Virus record (IMG/VR): IMGVR_UViG_2531839474_000014
Location: 1-5,565 of that record
Origin: a virus
Lineage: Duplodnaviria; Heunggongvirae; Uroviricota; Caudoviricetes
Length of the DNA stretch: 5,565 bases
Direction: 5' to 3' (one strand)
This document shows, piece after piece, positions 170-5,052 of the stretch. The translations under genes and the position numbers were made by a program. Every line of letters begins with the position of its first letter. Positions within the stretch are counted from its first letter, which is position 1. Below the pieces are notes generated by a model, which worked only from the letters and a program-made list of their open reading frames with translations, did no database searches and was not told the origin of the DNA.

Positions 170-227
170 AAAAAGGGCGGCAGAGCAGTCACGGAGTAAA
201 ACTGATACCGCCAAACGTCACCAGAAA
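170..227 (-). ncRNA. dicF: DicF-like small RNA (53-nt mature species about 175-227 plus U-tail to about 170), cell-division inhibitor sRNA of the dicB operon
   Basis: Minus-strand sequence TTTCTGGTGACGTTTGGCGGTATCAGTTTTACTCCGTGACTGCTCTGCCGCCC followed by TTTTT matches the E. coli DicF sequence as I recall it (53 nt). GGCGG...CCGCC stem plus U-run gives an intrinsic-terminator-like 3' end. Position downstream of ydfC-like gene matches the Qin order ydfABC-dicF-dicB. Confidence 0.75.
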
Positions 228-1179: not shown

Positions 1180-1208
1180 AATTTAGAATAACCTAACATG
1201 AGAGGCAA
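1180..1208 (-). promoter_or_regulatory. Putative sigma70 promoter of the leftward ydfA-ydfB-ydfC-dicF operon (minus strand -35 TTGCCT at 1208-1203, 17-bp spacer, -10 TAAATT at 1185-1180)
   Basis: Hexamers read on the minus strand, each 4 of 6 to consensus. Flanked and overlapped by operator-like TTAG-N6-CTAA sites. Inferred from sequence only. Confidence 0.4.
1183..1196. promoter_or_regulatory. Operator-like site TTAGaataacCTAA overlapping the -10 of the leftward promoter
   Basis: Shares the TTAG-N6-CTAA core with three other sites around the repressor gene. Confidence 0.45.
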
Positions 1209-1215
1209 GTGTTTT

Positions 1216-1235
1216 TTGTTAGATTGATCTAACAA
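1216..1235. promoter_or_regulatory. Perfect palindrome TTGTTAGAT-tg-ATCTAACAA (9-bp arms), candidate repressor operator upstream of the leftward promoter
   Basis: Perfect dyad symmetry seen directly. Core TTAG-N6-CTAA at 1219-1232. Near-identical half-sites recur at 1728-1745 in the dicA-dicC intergenic region. Confidence 0.6.
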
Positions 1236-1270
1236 AAAGGGTGGGCGCAACTAATCACTTGAAAAGAATG

Positions 1271-1678
1271 TTATTTTATTGATTTATTTTTACGCGCTTT
1301 AAGCATTTCTTCGAAGAGTTTGTTGAAGTTTTCTACTCTTGCGCGCATTTCAGACAGCAAGGCTTCCTGCTCGGAAGATGGAAGAGCATCGAATAATTCG
1401 ATCAATTCTTTGTGGTTGGGAGTTAGCTCTGTTTCCACATGAAGTTCTTGTGCAGGCACTGGTGCCTTGTCTTCGTCACCAAACATTAGCCATGTAGGTG
1501 AGCACTTCAGAGCATCCGCTAAAGCAAACAATCGTTTTCCGACTGGCTGGGTTTCGTCTCTTTCCCATTGTGAAATTGTGACGTGAGCAACTCCAGCGAG
1601 GCGCGCGGCTTCTCGTTGTGTTAAGCGTAATTCTTTTCGTCGCGCCAGAACTCGCTGGCCCAGGGTTCTTGTATCCAT
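1271..1678 (-). CDS. dicA: DicA-like XRE-family HTH repressor (CI analogue), 135 aa
   Basis: N-terminal HTH (LRLTQREAARLAGVAHVTISQWERDETQP) and C-terminal half (CSPTW..FGDEDK ... EMRARVENFNKLFEEMLKARK) closely resemble E. coli DicA as recalled, same 135-aa length. The HTH recognition region differs, suggesting different operator specificity. Divergent from a Cro-like gene. Confidence 0.9.
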   Translation of the reverse strand: MDTRTLGQRVLARRKELRLTQREAARLAGVAHVTISQWERDETQPVGKRLFALADALKCSPTWLMFGDEDKAPVPAQELHVETELTPNHKELIELFDALPSSEQEALLSEMRARVENFNKLFEEMLKARKNKSIK

Positions 1679-1680
1679 AG

Positions 1681-1694
1681 TTAGGTAATTCTAA
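1681..1694. promoter_or_regulatory. Operator-like site TTAGgtaattCTAA next to the repressor start codon; overlaps a -10-like TAGAAT on the minus strand
   Basis: TTAG-N6-CTAA core. Minus-strand TAGAAT (complement of 1688-1693) sits 9 nt upstream of the dicA-like ATG, with no Shine-Dalgarno between. Confidence 0.4.
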
Positions 1695-1700
1695 TTTTTC

Positions 1701-1728
1701 TTGACTTAGGTATCCCGCGCACAATAAT
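1701..1728 (+). promoter_or_regulatory. Putative rightward promoter for the Cro-like gene (-35 TTGACT 1701-1706, 16-bp spacer, -10 AATAAT 1723-1728)
   Basis: -35 is 5 of 6 and -10 is 5 of 6 to consensus. The operator palindrome at 1728-1745 overlaps the -10 and predicted start site. Confidence 0.5.
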
Positions 1729-1745
1729 GTTAGAAAAGTCTAACA
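1728..1745. promoter_or_regulatory. Operator palindrome TGTTAG-aaaagt-CTAACA overlapping the rightward promoter
   Basis: Perfect 6-bp inverted arms with the same TGTTAG/CTAACA half-sites as the 1216-1235 palindrome. Confidence 0.6.
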
Positions 1746-1758
1746 AGAGGGGGATTTG

Positions 1759-1986
1759 ATGCTTAAAGTTGACGCAATTACTTTTTTTGGCAGCAAAACA
1801 AAGCTTGCCAATGCCGCAGGAGTGAGGCTGGCAAGTGTTGCTGCTTGGGGGATACTGGTTCCTGAAGGTCGCGCGATGCGTCTACAGGAGGCATCTGGCG
1901 GGGAGCTTCAGTATGATCCCAAAGTTTATGATGAATATCGTAAGACGAAGCGGGCGGGGCGGTTGAACAATGAAAATCACTCCTGA
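1759..1986 (+). CDS. dicC: Cro-like small DNA-binding protein (DicC analogue), about 75 aa
   Basis: Divergent from the repressor. ATG at 1759 with GAGGGGG RBS 5 nt upstream; the ORF-track start at 1756 is a TTG. Small basic protein in the Cro position. Symbol by position, not by verified alignment. Confidence 0.7.
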   Translation: MLKVDAITFFGSKTKLANAAGVRLASVAAWGILVPEGRAMRLQEASGGELQYDPKVYDEYRKTKRAGRLNNENHS

Positions 1987-2491
1987 ACAGGCTCGTGAGG
2001 CTCTGGATGCCTGGATATGTCGACCAGGAATGACACAGGAGCAGGCGACGATATTAATCACTGAAGCATTCTGGGCTTTGAAAGAGCGCCCGAACATCGA
2101 TGTTCAGCGTGTCACAGATGAAGGTGGCGCGGTTGATCAGCGAGCGCTTGGTGTTAATCGAGTGAAGATATTCGAACGCTGGAAGGCTATCGACACCAGG
2201 GATAAGCGTGAAAAGTTCACGGCGCTAGTGCCTGCGATTATGGAGGCTATCCGGATTAGTGATTTCAGGTTGTATCGTGAAATTACTGACGGAAAAAGCA
2301 TCACGTGCATGATCGCCGGGTTAAACAAAGAATATGGCGATGTGGTGGAGTCCGGACTGCTTTTTGCTGATCCTGCCGTAGTGGATCGTGAAACTGACGA
2401 ACTTATAGAAAAAGCAATTGCTTTCAAGCTTGCGTATCGACAGCAATACCAACAAAAAGCTGGATGGAATTATGAGCCTTCTTTTTGCTGA
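1970..2491 (+). CDS. YdaT-like protein (CII-analogue family), 173 aa
   Basis: Overlaps the Cro-like stop by 17 nt, suggesting translational coupling. The segment WKAIDTRDKREKFTALVPAIMEAIRISDFRLY resembles Rac YdaT (WLKGETKTQREKIQKLIPAILAILPRELRHRL) as recalled. Sits where CII would in a lambdoid layout. Confidence 0.6.
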   Translation: MKITPEQAREALDAWICRPGMTQEQATILITEAFWALKERPNIDVQRVTDEGGAVDQRALGVNRVKIFERWKAIDTRDKREKFTALVPAIMEAIRISDFRLYREITDGKSITCMIAGLNKEYGDVVESGLLFADPAVVDRETDELIEKAIAFKLAYRQQYQQKAGWNYEPSFC

Positions 2492-3437
2492 ACGCCCACT
2501 GGTTATAAACACGCAGCTGGCAATGAAAATTGGCTTAAACGAAGCCATTGTTTTGCAACAACTGCACTACTGGTTGAGAGATACCAACTCCGGCATGGAA
2601 TGTGATGGTGTTCGCTGGATTTATAACACAACGGAACAATGGCTGGAACAGTTCCCATTCTGGTCAGAGTCAACGTTAAAGCGCGCGTTTGCAAGTCTGA
2701 AAACGCTGGGGCTTTTGCGTTGTGAAAAGCTCAATAAATCAAAGCGCGATATGACCAATTTCTACACGATCAACTATGGGAGCGAGCTTTTAGATGGTGG
2801 CAAATTGAGCGAATCCATCGGTTCAAAATGCGCCGCTCCATCAGGTCAAAATGACACGATGGAAGAGGTCAAAATGAAACGCTCCATTGGTTCAAAACGA
2901 CTCAATGTCATCGGGTCAAAATGGCCTGATGATCTTACAGAGAATACAACAGAGATTACTACAGAGAATAAAAAGACTTCTCGTCCGGAAGCTTCGCAAC
3001 CGGACCCGCAGACGGTTGAACAGGATTTTTTAACCCGACACCCTGACGCGGTTGTGTTCAGTGCGAAAAAACGCCAGTGGGGCAGCCAGGAAGATTTGGC
3101 GTGTGCGCAGTGGATCTGGGGGCGAATCGTGAGTCTTTACGAGCAGGCCGCCAGCGATGATGGCGAGATTTCGCGACCGAAAGAACCCAACTGGACCGCA
3201 TGGGCCAACGACGTGCGCACAATGCGGATGCTGGATGGCAGAACTCACAGACAAATTTGTGAAATGTTTGGTCGGGTGCAGCGGGATCCATTCTGGGTAA
3301 AAAATATCATGAGTCCGTCAAAGCTTCGCGAAAAATGGGATGAACTGGTTATCCGCCTGGGGCGTTCGTCTGTACAGCGTTGTGTGAATCATATTTCTGA
3401 GCCGGATACCGAAATTCCGCCGGGCTTCAGGGGGTAA
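2472..3437 (+). CDS. Phage replication initiation protein (lambda-O-like organisation) with internal origin and DnaT-like C-terminal tail, 321 aa from the first ATG (alternative TTG start at 2418)
   Basis: Iterons and an AT-rich repeat block lie inside the coding sequence, as in lambda O. C-terminus VNHISEPDTEIPPGFRG matches the C-terminus of E. coli primosomal protein DnaT (...VNTVSEPDSQIPPGFRG) as recalled. Confidence 0.8.
   Translation: MSLLFAERPLVINTQLAMKIGLNEAIVLQQLHYWLRDTNSGMECDGVRWIYNTTEQWLEQFPFWSESTLKRAFASLKTLGLLRCEKLNKSKRDMTNFYTINYGSELLDGGKLSESIGSKCAAPSGQNDTMEEVKMKRSIGSKRLNVIGSKWPDDLTENTTEITTENKKTSRPEASQPDPQTVEQDFLTRHPDAVVFSAKKRQWGSQEDLACAQWIWGRIVSLYEQAASDDGEISRPKEPNWTAWANDVRTMRMLDGRTHRQICEMFGRVQRDPFWVKNIMSPSKLREKWDELVIRLGRSSVQRCVNHISEPDTEIPPGFRG
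2814..2923. repeat. Five direct iterons with core GGT(T/C)CAAAA(T/C)G, ending at 2830, 2853, 2876, 2899 and 2923 (23-24 bp phasing); putative phage origin inside the initiator gene
   Basis: tCCATCGGTTCAAAATG, tCCATCAGGTCAAAATG, gaAGAGGTCAAAATG, tCCATTGGTTCAAAACG, gtCATCGGGTCAAAATG. They encode repeated SIGSK-type peptides in the protein. Confidence 0.75.
2937..2970. repeat. Three 12-bp-phased A+T-rich repeats ACAGAGA(A/T)TA just right of the iterons; candidate DNA-unwinding element
   Basis: ACAGAGAATA at 2937, ACAGAGATTA at 2949, ACAGAGAATA at 2961. Position relative to the iterons mirrors the lambda origin. Confidence 0.55.
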
Positions 3438-3477
3438 GTGTTAATTTCTGGTCATGAGGTAATTTTCAGGAGGGCTT

Positions 3478-3900
3478 GTGGCAAAAGTTTTTACACAAGA
3501 AGAGCGGGAAAAAATTAAAGGGCAGGTTGTTGAACTCGTACGCCGGAGTGGGCGTGAGACGTTACGGCAACTGGAAGTCAAGACAGGTGCGACAAGATAT
3601 CTGATGAGCGTTCTCGCAAGAGAGCTGGTTGCCAGCGGCGATGTATACAACTCTGGTTACGGGTTATTCCCGTCTGAACAGGCGCGTAAGGACTGGCAAA
3701 ATGCCCGTAAAAAGCTCTCAAGGGCAAAGCTGAAGGAACCATCTGCGGTTGATCCGGACCTTATCTGGTCATTACCTGACGGAGAAATACGTCGCTACGA
3801 CAGGCGTCAGAACATAATCTGTCGCGAGTGCCGGAAGAGTGAAGTTATGCAGCGCATACTAGCATTCTATCAGGGAAATGCTCGATATTTATTGAAGTGA
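3478..3900 (+). CDS. Hypothetical prophage protein, 140 aa, GTG start; possible winged-helix-like N-terminus
   Basis: AGGAGG RBS at 3468-3473 upstream of GTG 3478. Composition matches the neighbouring phage genes. Ends with tandem stops TGA TGA. No family recognised. Confidence 0.65.
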   Translation: MAKVFTQEEREKIKGQVVELVRRSGRETLRQLEVKTGATRYLMSVLARELVASGDVYNSGYGLFPSEQARKDWQNARKKLSRAKLKEPSAVDPDLIWSLPDGEIRRYDRRQNIICRECRKSEVMQRILAFYQGNARYLLK

Positions 3901-4082
3901 TGAGATTAAAGTTTATTAGTTCAGATATTGATTGGCTCTTTTGTGGAGTAGGGTAGAGTTAGTGTGTTTGTCTGCTTGGTGCCAGCAGCGGATATGTTTA
4001 ACAACAGAAAGCATTCAGCATGGTTAGTGGATTTGCAAAGTGGATTAGGATTTGAGAAACTTTGATGAAGTTGTAAAGCTTG

Positions 4083-4117
4083 TTTCTATAAAAATAGAAA
4101 TTTAACTAATAGTTAAA
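4083..4117. promoter_or_regulatory. Two adjacent A+T-rich palindromes (TTTCTAT-aaaa-ATAGAAA at 4083-4100; TTTAACT-aat-AGTTAAA at 4101-4117) about 35-70 bp upstream of the orphan ORF; candidate operator or promoter region
   Basis: Perfect 7-bp inverted arms seen directly. Followed by AAGGA RBS (4139-4143) and ATG at 4153. Confidence 0.35.
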
Positions 4118-4152
4118 CACACCTCCAGCTTCATTGAAAAGGATTATTAGCT

Positions 4153-5052
4153 ATGATTGATCCACTTATTAGAAACTTACAGAGTGATATTGCACTACTC
4201 CAGCTTTATATCGCGCAACGCAAACAGGCAGGCTTTCATGACATGGAAAGAATAATTGAGTCATTGACCATCTTTATGTTTCGCGCGCTGAAAATGGGTG
4301 AACTGGTAAACATGAATCAGATTAAAGTTAATTTTCCCGCCATTGATTTAGCTGATAATAAAAACATGATAGCAGTTCAAGTTACTACGAATGCAAGTCC
4401 AGCAAAAATTAAAAAAACTATCGAATCTTTTGAGAAAATAAATGAAATAGGAGAGAGTCTGAAAGATAAATACTCTACTTTATATATTTTTGGTTTTTGT
4501 AAAGCCTCAAGATACCTAACTCCAAGTTATTGTAAAATAATCGACCCCAGCTATTTCGTGAATGAACTTTGCGATAAAGCAGATGAAGATATGGTCCAGG
4601 ATATGATTGACGCCATTCGACGCCATCATGATTATACATCATTACATCCATGGAGTGATAAAGATTCACTCGAAATTATACTCAATATTATTAATCGCAA
4701 TGCAATAAAACATCGGATGAGTTGCGAAGGCAGTCTGTCTGATATGCTCACTGGTTTAAAAGAAATTAATGAAGTAATTACAAAAGGAACAATTCAACGT
4801 AAGCAACGTTCAAAATCGATATCTGACTTCAAAGATCAAAGCATGGTGAAATTTATGAGAGGTGTAATGGATGATTTGTCTGTTATTCAAGCCATAGTGA
4901 ACAAATCTAAAGTTAACCAAGGTGATATGGTTTATATAAGCCATGAAGATATGATTAATATTGATAAATTAAAAGCTAAAATAGCAAGTGATTCATCAGA
5001 GATTGCAAGGCTAAATAATATTGATATAACACTAAATGTTGTTGATTTATAA
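4153..5052 (+). CDS. Orphan low-GC protein, 299 aa, function unknown; candidate accessory (defence or abortive-infection type) gene
   Basis: Long uninterrupted ORF with AAGGA RBS 9 nt upstream. G+C roughly 30-35 percent by eye against about 50 percent in flanking genes. No catalytic motif recognised. N-terminal segment NFPAIDLADNKNMIAVQVTTNASPAKIKK loosely recalls N-terminal domains of conflict-system proteins (unverified). Confidence 0.8.
   Translation: MIDPLIRNLQSDIALLQLYIAQRKQAGFHDMERIIESLTIFMFRALKMGELVNMNQIKVNFPAIDLADNKNMIAVQVTTNASPAKIKKTIESFEKINEIGESLKDKYSTLYIFGFCKASRYLTPSYCKIIDPSYFVNELCDKADEDMVQDMIDAIRRHHDYTSLHPWSDKDSLEIILNIINRNAIKHRMSCEGSLSDMLTGLKEINEVITKGTIQRKQRSKSISDFKDQSMVKFMRGVMDDLSVIQAIVNKSKVNQGDMVYISHEDMINIDKLKAKIASDSSEIARLNNIDITLNVVDL

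What the first reader, a model, noticed from the sequence alone, without database searches (positions are those of the whole stretch)
2814..2970. Origin of replication embedded in the initiator gene: five phased iterons plus three A+T-rich 12-bp repeats
Five copies of GGT(T/C)CAAAA(T/C)G recur at 23-24 bp intervals (about two helical turns), followed by three ACAGAGA(A/T)TA repeats. This is the lambda origin architecture (iterons then an A+T-rich unwinding region inside the O gene), but with different iteron sequence and number. The iterons also encode repeated SIGSK peptides, so DNA-level and protein-level constraints coincide.
Basis: partly seen in the sequence, partly recalled or inferred. 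Interest (0 to 1): 0.5.

Follow-up and report, generated by a model that had tools for sequence, protein, structure and literature searches.

The report
Prophage replication origin inside initiator gene
The repeats are almost certainly the replication origin of a lambda-like E. coli prophage, sitting inside the gene of the protein that binds it, which is an ordinary kind of origin; the less ordinary point is that this phage has no helicase-loader gene and its initiator ends in a copy of the tail of the host protein DnaT.

Summary
Five G[GT]TCAAAA[TC]G cores lie at 2821, 2844, 2867, 2890 and 2914 (0 of 200 shuffles), with a degenerate sixth copy at 2798. Three 12-bp ACAGAGAWTA repeats follow at 2937-2972.

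The repeats are under DNA-level selection, not protein-level:
- The cores fall in all three reading frames.
- Third-codon positions are as conserved as first and second.
- The encoded peptide is modelled as a disordered linker.

Of 73 relatives from several phyla, 56 carry phased 22-24-bp repeats at the same place in the gene, against 1 of 73 in each control region. The repeat sequence differs between clades.

The lambda-type origin reading is therefore supported, as a new member of a known kind. No experiment was possible.

It differs from lambda in having no P, DnaC or DnaB gene. The initiator ends in the C-terminal tail of host DnaT. That tail excludes a neighbouring helicase or loader gene (0 of 24 loci against 27 of 47). 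This is a testable lead for how "O-only" lambdoid phages replicate, which is not understood.

The parts
1701..1728 (+). pR-like sigma-70 promoter (TTGACT-16-AATAAT) in front of the dicC/cro-like gene. Rightward transcription from here would run through the origin about 1.1 kb downstream.
   Evidence: 10 of 12 consensus matches, the only promoter-like site in 1200-4200. It is flanked by two TTAG-N6-CTAA operator-like palindromes. A role in activating the origin is inferred from lambda, not tested.
2472..3437 (+). Initiator gene (321 aa). NCBI annotates it as a hypothetical protein. It is O-like and holds the origin in its middle.
   Evidence: PHROG 391 'replication initiation O-like', E 4.9e-95. 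No Pfam family. Infectious phages carry genes 93-95% identical: PhiR42_1, HannyBb, mEp460_ev081.
2472..2810 (+). N-terminal domain (aa 1-113), modelled as a winged helix-turn-helix. It is the presumed iteron-binding domain.
2798..2807 (+). Degenerate leftmost iteron core (TGGCAAATTG), one 23-bp step before copy 1.
   Evidence: Included in the repeat family at 67% identity. The aligned position is GAGGTCAAAGTGAC in relatives.
2814..2929 (+). Five iterons of 23 bp each. Cores G[GT]TCAAAA[TC]G start at 2821, 2844, 2867, 2890 and 2914. Each unit is an imperfect palindrome converging on an A-tract.
   Evidence: 0 of 200 shuffles. The 23-mer consensus from 80 aligned copies is TCCATCAGGTCAAAATGACCCGA. 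The cores lie in three reading frames. Core third-codon positions have conservation 0.89 against 0.63 in the N-domain, Mann-Whitney p 1.2e-6.
2931..2934 (.). Single GATC (Dam site) at the left edge of the A-rich repeats.
   Evidence: It is conserved in most but not all enteric relatives. Its significance is unknown.
2937..2972 (+). Three 12-bp A-rich repeats (ACAGAGAATACA, ACAGAGATTACT, ACAGAGAATAAA). They are the presumed DNA unwinding element.
   Evidence: Least stable 41-mer of the gene and operon. Most conserved DNA of the gene at 0.92 mean identity, with third positions 0.96 and second positions 0.83, p 9e-9 against N-domain third positions. Relatives carry 3-5 copies, always differing by 12-bp steps.
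2983..3005 (.). Inverted repeat to the right of the A-rich block (GTCCGG-n11-CCGGAC here; 10-bp arms in relatives).
   Evidence: The Klebsiella type has GTCCGGTTGC-n3-GCAACCAGAC. The Xenorhabdus type has GTCAGGTTCC-n3-GGAACCCGAC, a compensatory change. Lambda has a palindrome at the corresponding place (by eye).
2910..3353 (+). Part of the gene homologous to the lambda O C-terminal half (aa 147-294).
   Evidence: BLASTP against lambda O: 35% identity over 148 aa, E 4e-28. Helical domain at aa 183-296 with pLDDT 62-82.
3384..3434 (+). C-terminal tail (aa 305-321, VNHISEPDTEIPPGFRG) that copies the last residues of E. coli DnaT.
   Evidence: PDB DnaT chains 2ru8, 6aep and 9zbt at E 0.008-0.03, aligned to the very end of DnaT. 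NCBIfam DnaT positions 158-179 of 179, E 0.003. Twenty-four of 74 relatives have this tail, and none of them has a helicase, loader or P gene next door.

Best explanation
Window 2798-3005 is the replication origin of a lambdoid (Qin/DicA-DicC immunity type) prophage. It lies inside the gene of its own initiator.

**Shown:**
- The array exists, with its phasing and palindromic units.
- It is under DNA-level conservation.
- It recurs across the protein family.
- The initiator's C-terminal half is homologous to lambda O.
- The N-domain is modelled as a winged helix.

**Inferred mechanism:**
1. Dimers of the N-terminal winged-helix domain bind the five (or six) 23-bp semi-palindromic iterons.
2. 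The resulting nucleoprotein complex stresses the adjacent three 12-bp A-rich repeats (2937-2972) and opens them.
3. Rightward transcription from the pR-like promoter at 1701-1728 may help, as in lambda.
4. The host DnaB helicase is then loaded.

The phage has no P, DnaC or DnaB gene. I propose, with less confidence, that the lambda-O-like C-domain and its DnaT-mimicking tail recruit host loading machinery directly. The stretch of protein encoded by the origin is a tolerant disordered linker between the two domains, which is why DNA signals can be written into it.
For: 1. **Array statistics.** Five cores against 0.11 expected; 0 of 200 shuffles reach 5. Spacing is 23, 23, 23 and 24 bp.
2. **Reading frames.** The cores lie in frames 1, 0, 2, 1 and 1, giving different peptides.
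3. **Codon positions.** Over 14 enteric relatives, conservation at positions 1, 2 and 3 is:
   - N-domain: 0.85, 0.92, 0.63
   - iteron cores: 0.88, 0.93, 0.89
   - A-rich repeats: 0.99, 0.83, 0.96

   Third positions differ from the N-domain at p 1e-6 and 9e-9.
4. **Family-wide recurrence.** At least 3 phased repeats (22-24 bp or double) occur at nt 290-560 of the gene in 56 of 73 relatives, from Enterobacterales, Pseudomonas, Acinetobacter, Bacillus, Staphylococcus and Lactobacillaceae. Each of two control regions of the same genes gives 1 of 73.
5. **Specificity co-variation.** The repeat sequence changes with the N-domain clade:
   - GGTCAAAATG, GGACAAATTGTCC, GCAAATTGC, CAATTTGTC and GATCCAACG among relatives sharing this N-domain
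   - GTCAAAATCTGAC at 15-bp spacing in SfIV-type genes, which share only the C-domain
6. **Homology.** The C-half matches lambda O at E 4e-28. Lambda's annotated iterons sit at the same relative place.
8. **Melting.** The A-rich block is the least stable 41-mer of the early-right operon.
9. **Working replicon.** Infectious phages HannyBb, PhiR42_1 and mEp460 carry the same gene and iterons with no other replication gene nearby. A complete related phage genome is deposited as a 43.7-kb circular extrachromosomal record whose only candidate replication gene is this one.
10. **Linker.** aa 109-174 have pLDDT 24-31.
Against: - There is no experimental evidence for binding or origin activity of this sequence type; none was found in the papers searched.
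- The N-domain has no detectable sequence similarity to lambda O's N-domain or to Pfam RepA_N. The fold assignment rests on a medium-confidence model built from a shallow alignment (mean pLDDT 60).
- The 12-mers are conserved in sequence, not only in composition. They may therefore be a protein-binding site rather than, or as well as, a simple unwinding element.
- This copy lies in a prophage with an IS fragment at the window's right end, so the element may be defective and the origin unused here.
- The helicase-loading step is a hypothesis. The DnaT match is only about 22 residues (E 0.003-0.03). A profile of the whole C-domain finds no DnaT in the PDB.
Confidence: 0.85

Rival explanations
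1. The repeats are initiator-binding sites, but they work mainly in control (autoregulation of the gene, copy-number handcuffing, exclusion of related phages). Initiation happens elsewhere.
For: - Iterons in plasmids do both jobs (established knowledge; PMC3401445 for chromosome II of Vibrio).
- The window holds stretches that melt more easily outside the gene, for example 4079-4119 and 1252-1292.
Against: - Those other A+T-rich stretches lie in accessory DNA (SMEK gene, immunity region) that the infectious relatives do not share.
- The iteron plus A-rich plus inverted-repeat block is the only non-coding-type signal conserved with the initiator across genera.
- Lambda's homologous arrangement is the origin itself.
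Confidence: 0.07
2. The repeats reflect a repeated peptide in the protein (SIGSK and TENT/TEIT motifs) and have no role as DNA.
For: - Three of the five cores encode (S/V)IGSK.
- The 12-bp repeats are in frame and encode TENT, TEIT and TENK.
Against: - The period of 23 bp is not a multiple of three, so the cores are read in all three frames.
- Third-codon positions are as conserved as the others, or more so. In the 12-mers the second position is the least conserved, allowing Asn, Ile and Ser changes.
- The encoded segment is modelled as disordered.
Confidence: 0.02
3. The block is conserved mainly because it is a recombination joint. Short conserved DNA between the N-domain and C-domain modules would promote shuffling of lambdoid replication modules.
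For: - Similarity to other phages breaks exactly at gene nt 496-497, just after the 12-mers. Klebsiella phages share nt 58-535; SfII and SfIV share nt 497-875.
- The same 12-mers join lambda-O-type and Phg_2220_C-type C-domains.
Against: - A joint explains the 12-mers at most. It does not explain the phased, palindromic, clade-specific iterons or their presence in distant phyla.
- Exchange at a conserved origin is an expected consequence of an origin.
Confidence: 0.04
4. It is an origin by descent but no longer functions in this element, because the prophage is a decaying, Qin-like cryptic prophage.
For: - The neighbourhood is that of Qin: DicF RNA at 175-226, ydfABC, dicA and dicC.
- A transposase-like ORF fragment runs off the right end.
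- A related Shigella locus has a truncated gene (L048).
Against: - The 321-aa ORF is intact.
- The iterons and 12-mers match the copies in infectious phages (window against PhiR42_1 and HannyBb).
- The 221-bp block is kept at 95% identity or more in most of the 1972 complete E. coli genomes that carry it.
Confidence: 0.2

Closest known systems
Bacteriophage lambda ori and O protein (with P)
   Same: - The origin lies inside the initiator gene, between its two domains.
- It has four to six dyad-symmetric iterons at 20-24-bp spacing with a TCAAAAYG-like centre.
- An A-rich block follows to the right, then a palindrome.
- The C-terminal half of the protein is homologous (35% identity, E 4e-28).
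- A pR-type promoter lies about 1 kb upstream.
   Different: - The iteron arms differ, and there are five or six copies rather than four.
- The A-rich block is three sequence-conserved 12-mers.
- The N-domain is not a detectable Phage_rep_O member.
- No P gene follows.
- The protein ends in a DnaT-like tail, which lambda O lacks.
O-only replication modules of lambdoid phages (phage LLS and 34 of 314 Enterobacteriales lambdoid phages; PMC12315714)
   Same: There is a single O-homolog gene and no helicase or loader. That paper states none of these phages has been studied and that replication of this type is not understood.
   Different: The paper does not describe the origin or the C-terminal tail. 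Whether LLS itself has this N-domain or tail was not checked here.
RepA_N plasmid and satellite initiators (pSK41 and pTZ2162 RepA; Vibrio PLE RepA)
   Same: - The iterons are semi-palindromic and converge on an A-tract.
- A variable, host-specific C-domain follows (PMC7145576).
- From my own knowledge (Weaver et al. 2009), RepA_N origins often lie inside the rep coding sequence.
   Different: - No member of the family reaches the Pfam RepA_N model.
- The C-domain here is lambda-O-like.
- The setting is a lambdoid early-right operon.
P22 gene 18 and phage L gene 18 origins
   Same: The initiator gene carries its own, phage-specific iterons near its centre. Phage L has six imprecise 11-bp repeats, inferred from sequence to be its origin (PMC8022706).
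   Different: Those phages encode a DnaB-type helicase (gene 12) next to the initiator. Their iteron sequences and spacing differ.
E. coli DnaT (primosomal protein I)
   Same: The last 13 residues are nearly identical: SEPDTEIPPGFRG here against SEPDSQIPPGFRG in DnaT.
   Different: The rest of the protein is not DnaT. The score is 17 bits against the NCBIfam cut-off of 201, and the profile search gives no match. I could not find the function of DnaT's tail in the papers read.

Membership tests
Lambda-type origin (ori inside the O gene) | Origin signals lie inside the initiator ORF, at the junction of the N- and C-domain coding parts. | tested here: met
   The array at 2798-3005 lies between the N-domain (to 2810) and the folded C-domain (from about 3018). 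The encoded aa 109-174 are modelled as disordered. Lambda iterons sit at the same relative place.
Lambda-type origin (ori inside the O gene) | Four or more direct repeats with internal dyad symmetry, about two helical turns apart. | tested here: met
   Five cores plus one degenerate copy, spaced 23, 23, 23 and 24 bp. The unit is the palindrome CATCrGGTCA-AAA-TGACnnGATG. Lambda's spacing is 20, 24 and 23 bp.
Lambda-type origin (ori inside the O gene) | An easily melted A+T-rich segment lies directly right of the iterons. | tested here: met
   GC is 0.33 with AT skew +0.35 at 2920-2979. It is the least stable 41-mer of 1756-3900.
Lambda-type origin (ori inside the O gene) | The initiator is homologous to lambda O. 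| tested here: inconclusive
   The C-half is homologous (E 4e-28). The N-domain shows no BLASTP similarity, and none of 74 family members hits any Pfam model in that domain.
Lambda-type origin (ori inside the O gene) | A partner gene for helicase delivery (P) lies next to O. | tested here: not met
   The next genes are DUF977 and a SMEK-domain gene. HannyBb and PhiR42_1 likewise have no P, DnaC or DnaB near the gene.
Lambda-type origin (ori inside the O gene) | The initiator binds the repeats, and the fragment supports initiator-dependent replication. | not testable with these tools
   This needs EMSA or footprinting and a replication assay.
RepA_N initiators | N-terminal winged-helix domain of the RepA_N/DnaD-NTD fold. 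| tested here: met
   [not shown]
RepA_N initiators | Match to the Pfam RepA_N model (PF06970). | tested here: not met
   RepA_N is not among the five Pfam families that any of the 74 family members matches at E <= 0.001.
RepA_N initiators | Semi-palindromic iterons converging on a poly-A tract. | tested here: met
   The consensus GGTCA-AAA-TGACC lies within CATC...GATG arms. The description of RepA_N iterons is from PMC7145576.
DnaT (primosomal protein I) | Full-length match to the DnaT equivalog model. | tested here: not met
   NCBIfam NF002770 scores 17.2 bits against a cut-off of 201. Only positions 158-179 align.
DnaT (primosomal protein I) | C-terminal ...SEPDxxIPPGFRG tail. | tested here: met
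   Aligned to the very end of PDB DnaT chains at E 0.008-0.03.

The most novel reading that the evidence does not exclude
Initiators of 'O-only' lambdoid replication modules dispense with a phage helicase loader because their extreme C-terminus mimics the tail of host DnaT (...DxxIPxGFRG). The tail would capture the host protein that normally docks on DnaT (a primosome or DnaB-DnaC component) and bring it to the opened origin.

More generally, the last 10-15 residues of these initiators would be an exchangeable docking peptide that names the helicase-delivery partner:
- A DnaT-like tail goes with no phage partner.
- An HWNSPEAWENTL tail goes with a lambda P homolog. It occurs on two different C-domains, in L018 and L020.
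- An EQDYGxTDCNW tail goes with a DnaC-like ATPase.

Evidence: 0 of 24 loci with the DnaT-like tail have a helicase, loader or P gene next door, against 27 of 47 with other tails (Fisher 4e-7). Within Enterobacterales the figures are 0 of 24 against 8 of 11 (7e-6). The lineages are not independent.
Probability: 0.35. Interest if true: 0.7.

Novelty: new member of a known kind. Interest (0 to 1): 0.4.

Why it matters
**Annotation.** The 221-bp origin block is present in 1972 of 5426 complete E. coli genomes. The listed best hits all lie under a gene called "hypothetical protein", and the protein family has no Pfam model although it spans several phyla. Naming the gene and its origin would improve prophage annotation and help judge which prophages can still replicate.

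**Mechanism.** A 2025 survey states that lambdoid phages with only an O gene have not been studied and that their replication is not understood (PMC12315714). This locus gives:
- a defined origin;
- infectious model phages (HannyBb, PhiR42_1, mEp460);
- a specific, cheap test: remove or swap the DnaT-like tail.

If the tail idea holds, it would also point to the unknown binding partner of DnaT's own tail in replication restart.

Tried and rejected
- **Pfam and NCBIfam on the initiator.** No family; only chance-level hits to Slx4 and YLR146W-A.
- **PDB profile search with eight C-domains.** No hits. The DnaT similarity is therefore confined to the tail and is not a domain homology.
- **DnaA boxes.** TTATNCACA with up to 1 mismatch gives 5 matches against 5.5 expected, none in the origin.
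- **GATC.** 18 sites against 20.8 expected, with one at the edge of the 12-mers. No Dam-site clustering of the oriC type.
- **Terminator-like sites.** No enrichment, and none in the array.
- **Rfam.** Only DicF, so the array is not a known RNA element.
- **Literature.**
  - "initiator-solo" returned no papers.
  - The SfV genome paper is not held.
  - The Stx-phage replication-unit paper does not mention iterons, DnaT, YdaT or DUF977.
  - The DnaT structure papers do not say what the C-terminal tail does.
- **DUF977 as a hidden partner.** This is the gene after the initiator, which PHROGs calls "Ren-like". It follows only 2 of the 24 tail-bearing initiators, so I rejected it as a general partner.
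- **Large Pantoea downstream ORFs.** I suspected helicases. They carry a ParB-type HTH domain, not DnaB.
- **Technical note.** An iterative DnaC profile drifted into DnaB-type ATPases. I use only the per-locus presence or absence from that call.
Full report
**1. Setting**

The window is the immunity and early-right region of a lambdoid E. coli-type prophage of the Qin (DicA/DicC) kind.

On the minus strand:
- DicF RNA at 175-226 (Rfam, 76.7 bits)
- ydfC, ydfB and ydfA
- a DicA-like repressor at 1271-1678

On the plus strand:
- a DicC/Cro-like gene at 1756-1986
- a YdaT/CII-like gene at 1970-2491
- a 321-aa gene at 2472-3437
- a DUF977 gene at 3478-3900
- a low-GC SMEK-domain gene at 4153-5052
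- a transposase-like ORF fragment that runs off the right end

The nearest complete E. coli genomes are 97-98% identical over most of the window. The finding lies in the middle of the 321-aa gene.

**2. The observation**

G[GT]TCAAAA[TC]G occurs five times, only at 2821, 2844, 2867, 2890 and 2914. Chance expectation is 0.11, and 0 of 200 shuffles reach five. The spacing is 23, 23, 23 and 24 bp. ACAGAGA[AT]TA occurs at 2937, 2949 and 2961.

A degenerate sixth copy lies at 2798-2807; relatives have a good copy there. Eighty aligned copies from 14 relatives give the 23-mer TCCATCAGGTCAAAATGACCCGA. This is an imperfect palindrome, CATCrGGTCA-AAA-TGACnnGATG.

To the right of the 12-mers is a conserved inverted repeat at 2983-3005. 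Its arms co-vary between clades:
- GTCCGGTTGC/GCAACCAGAC in the Klebsiella type
- GTCAGGTTCC/GGAACCCGAC in the Xenorhabdus type

**3. DNA signal or protein repeat?**

The period of 23 bp is not a multiple of three. The five cores start at codon offsets 1, 0, 2, 1 and 1 and encode SIGSK, SGQN, EVKM, SIGSK and VIGSK. The peptide repeat is therefore partial and secondary.

In an alignment of 14 non-redundant enteric relatives, mean column identity by codon position is:

| Region | Position 1 | Position 2 | Position 3 |
|---|---|---|---|
| N-domain | 0.85 | 0.92 | 0.63 |
| Iteron cores | 0.88 | 0.93 | 0.89 |
| 12-mers | 0.99 | 0.83 | 0.96 |

The N-domain shows the usual signature of a protein under selection. 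The other two regions do not. Third positions of cores and 12-mers are more conserved than N-domain third positions (Mann-Whitney p 1.2e-6 and 9.4e-9). The 12-mers tolerate Asn, Ile and Ser changes while keeping the DNA.

The AlphaFold model gives pLDDT 24-31 for aa 109-174, exactly the part encoded by the array. It sits between two folded domains. So DNA-level constraint dominates, and the protein there is a tolerant linker.

**4. The protein**

No Pfam or NCBIfam family covers the protein. PHROGs places it in "replication initiation O-like" (E 4.9e-95).

Residues 147-294 are homologous to the C-terminal half of lambda O (35% identity, E 4e-28).

RepA_N iterons are described as semi-palindromic repeats converging on a poly-A tract (PMC7145576). 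That is the form seen here.

**5. Comparison with lambda**

In the lambda record the four annotated iterons start at O-gene nt 349, 369, 393 and 416, a spacing of 20, 24 and 23 bp. Their centres read TCAAAACGA. An A-rich stretch and then a palindrome follow.

In the window the cores start at gene nt 350-443, followed by an A-rich block and an inverted repeat. The block 2934-2974 is the least stable 41-mer of the gene and of the whole early-right operon, with dG -45.6 against a mean of -56.6, sd 3.5. Its top strand is A-rich (AT skew +0.35 to +0.39).

A single pR-like promoter at 1701-1728 would send transcription through the array.

**6. Relatives**

*Close relatives.* Infectious phages PhiR42_1, HannyBb and mEp460_ev081 carry genes 93-95% identical, with iterons and 12-mers that match the window's.

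*Module boundaries.* Similarity to other phages breaks at gene nt 496-497, directly after the 12-mers:
- Klebsiella phages share the N-domain, iterons and 12-mers.
- SfII and SfIV share only the C-domain. They have a different N-domain with different iterons (GTCAAAATCTGAC, six or seven copies at 15 bp).

*Wider family.* A scan of one genome per species with the N-domain alignment gave 80 loci. They come from Enterobacterales, Pseudomonas, Acinetobacter, Psychrobacter, Bacillus, Staphylococcus, Lactobacillaceae and others. In 73 non-redundant genes, a chain of at least three repeats spaced 22-24 bp (or double that) lies at nt 290-560 in 56 genes, and at least four in 38. Each of two control regions of the same genes gives 1 of 73.

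*Clade-specific repeats.* The repeat sequence differs between clades: GGTCAAAATG, GGACAAATTGTCC, GCAAATTGC, CAATTTGTC, CGACAAATT, GATCCAACG and TGACCCAAT. Binding domain and repeats thus travel and diverge together, as expected for an initiator and its sites.

*C-domains.* These vary among relatives: lambda-O-like, Phg_2220_C (33 of 74), DnaD-like DnaB_2, and DnaA_N.

**7. Most likely mechanism**

1. Dimers of the winged-helix N-domain occupy the five or six iterons.
2. The complex distorts and opens the adjacent 12-mers, possibly helped by transcription from the pR-like promoter.
3. The C-terminal part brings in a helicase.

Steps 1 and 2 are inferred from lambda and from iteron plasmids. They are supported here by sequence evidence only. 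I put 0.85 on [quoted passage not shown]. I put about 0.65 on the 12-mers being the unwinding element.

The 12-mers' sequence conservation is not explained by easy melting alone. They are kept across relatives with different iterons and different C-domains. This suggests that something reads them specifically.

**8. Where it departs from lambda**

No P, DnaC-like or DnaB-like gene follows the initiator, either here or in the infectious relatives. A 2025 survey found 34 of 314 lambdoid phages with such O-only modules. It states that none has been studied and that their replication is not understood (PMC12315714).

The last 17 residues, VNHISEPDTEIPPGFRG, match the very end of E. coli DnaT...NTVSEPDSQIPPGFRG (PDB chains at E 0.008-0.03; NCBIfam DnaT positions 158-179 of 179, E 0.003). 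The rest of the protein is not DnaT.

The tail motif ends 24 of the 74 family members, all of them Enterobacterales, on two different C-domain types. Tail type tracks the neighbouring gene:

| C-terminal tail | Loci | Gene next door | Calls |
|---|---|---|---|
| DnaT-like (...IPxGFRG) | 24 | no helicase, loader or P (0 of 24) | 85, 108 |
| Any other tail | 47 | helicase, loader or P in 27 | 86, 108 |
| HWNSPEAWENTL | L018, L020 (different C-domains) | lambda P homolog | 87, 88 |
| EQDYGxTDCNW | L031, L034, L035, L036, L041 | DnaC-like ATPase | 87 (L031, L034, L036), 108 (all five) |

The Fisher tests give 4e-7 for all loci, and 7e-6 within Enterobacterales (0 of 24 against 8 of 11). Lambda O, which has P, lacks the DnaT-like tail. 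The lineages are not independent, and the tail match is short, so I give the docking-peptide idea 0.35.

**9. Rivals**

- *Pure peptide repeat.* Contradicted by frames and codon positions.
- *Control sites with initiation elsewhere.* Cannot be excluded without an assay. It is unlikely, because the other A+T-rich stretches of the window lie in accessory DNA that infectious relatives lack.
- *Recombination joint.* Explains at most the 12-mers.
- *Relic origin.* The origin may be idle in this particular, possibly defective, prophage. That does not change what it is.

**10. Verdict**

The finding is correct in substance and ordinary in kind. Origins written into initiator genes are textbook for lambda and P22. 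The same inference from sequence has been made for phage L (PMC8022706).

It is a new, apparently undescribed member of that kind. It is very common: the 221-bp block is in 1972 of 5426 complete E. coli genomes, and the listed best hits all lie under a "hypothetical protein". The more interesting result is the side observation on O-only modules and the DnaT-like tail.

Noticed in passing
window 3384-3434 (aa 305-321); loci L004-L047, L018, L020, L031-L041: The initiator ends in the C-terminal tail of host DnaT (SEPDxxIPPGFRG). Across 74 relatives the tail type tracks the neighbouring gene. The DnaT-like tail goes with no helicase or loader (0 of 24). HWNSPEAWENTL goes with a lambda P homolog. 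EQDYGxTDCNW goes with a DnaC-like ATPase. Some Firmicutes relatives end in acidic-aromatic tails (DDLPF, DFDF) that look like SSB tails.
   Followed up: partly
window 2937-2972 and aligned positions in L004-L023, L024-L038, L083: The 12-bp A-rich repeats are conserved in sequence, not just composition. This holds across Enterobacterales relatives with different iterons and different C-domains. Their number varies from 3 to 5, always in 12-bp (in-frame) steps. What reads them is unknown.
   Followed up: partly
window 2983-3005: A conserved inverted repeat lies right of the A-rich block. Its arms co-vary between the Klebsiella-type and Xenorhabdus-type relatives. It corresponds in position to the palindrome at the right of lambda ori.
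   Followed up: partly
window 1183-1196, 1219-1232, 1681-1694, 1730-1743: There are four TTAG-N6-CTAA palindromes (0.06 expected; 0 of 200 shuffles reach 4). Two lie in front of the ydfA-dicB operon. Two flank the pR-like promoter between the dicA-like and dicC-like genes. They are probably the repressor's operators.
   Followed up: partly
window 175-226 (-): A full-length DicF small RNA is present (Rfam RF00039, 76.7 bits, E 3e-16). It lies downstream of ydfC, so the dicBF cell-division-inhibition operon of Qin type is part of this prophage.
   Followed up: yes
window 4153-5052 (+): A low-GC accessory gene follows the replication module. It has a SMEK N-domain (Pfam E 2e-22) and matches a PADLOC model, Aga_REase-PNTD1-PNTD2 (E 1.4e-20). 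It is a candidate anti-phage defence gene. HannyBb and PhiR42_1 lack it.
   Followed up: partly
L090 (NZ_CP081704.1, whole 43,680-bp record): A complete SfV/mEp460-like phage genome is deposited as a circular 'plasmid' of E. coli AH02. Its only candidate replication gene is a 330-aa relative of this initiator (7488-8480). This is consistent with autonomous replication of an O-only module, or with an induced prophage caught in the assembly.
   Followed up: no
A3 (74 relatives of the N-domain): The N-terminal origin-binding domain has no Pfam model, although it occurs from Enterobacterales to Bacillus, Staphylococcus and Lactobacillaceae. It is fused to at least four unrelated C-domains: lambda-O-like, Phg_2220_C, DnaD-like DnaB_2 and DnaA_N.
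   Followed up: partly
window 5389-5565 (-): An ORF running off the right end reads like the C-terminus of an IS transposase. The 58-aa fragment gave no Pfam hit. The many plasmid matches to the whole window may come from this segment, but that was not checked.
   Followed up: partly
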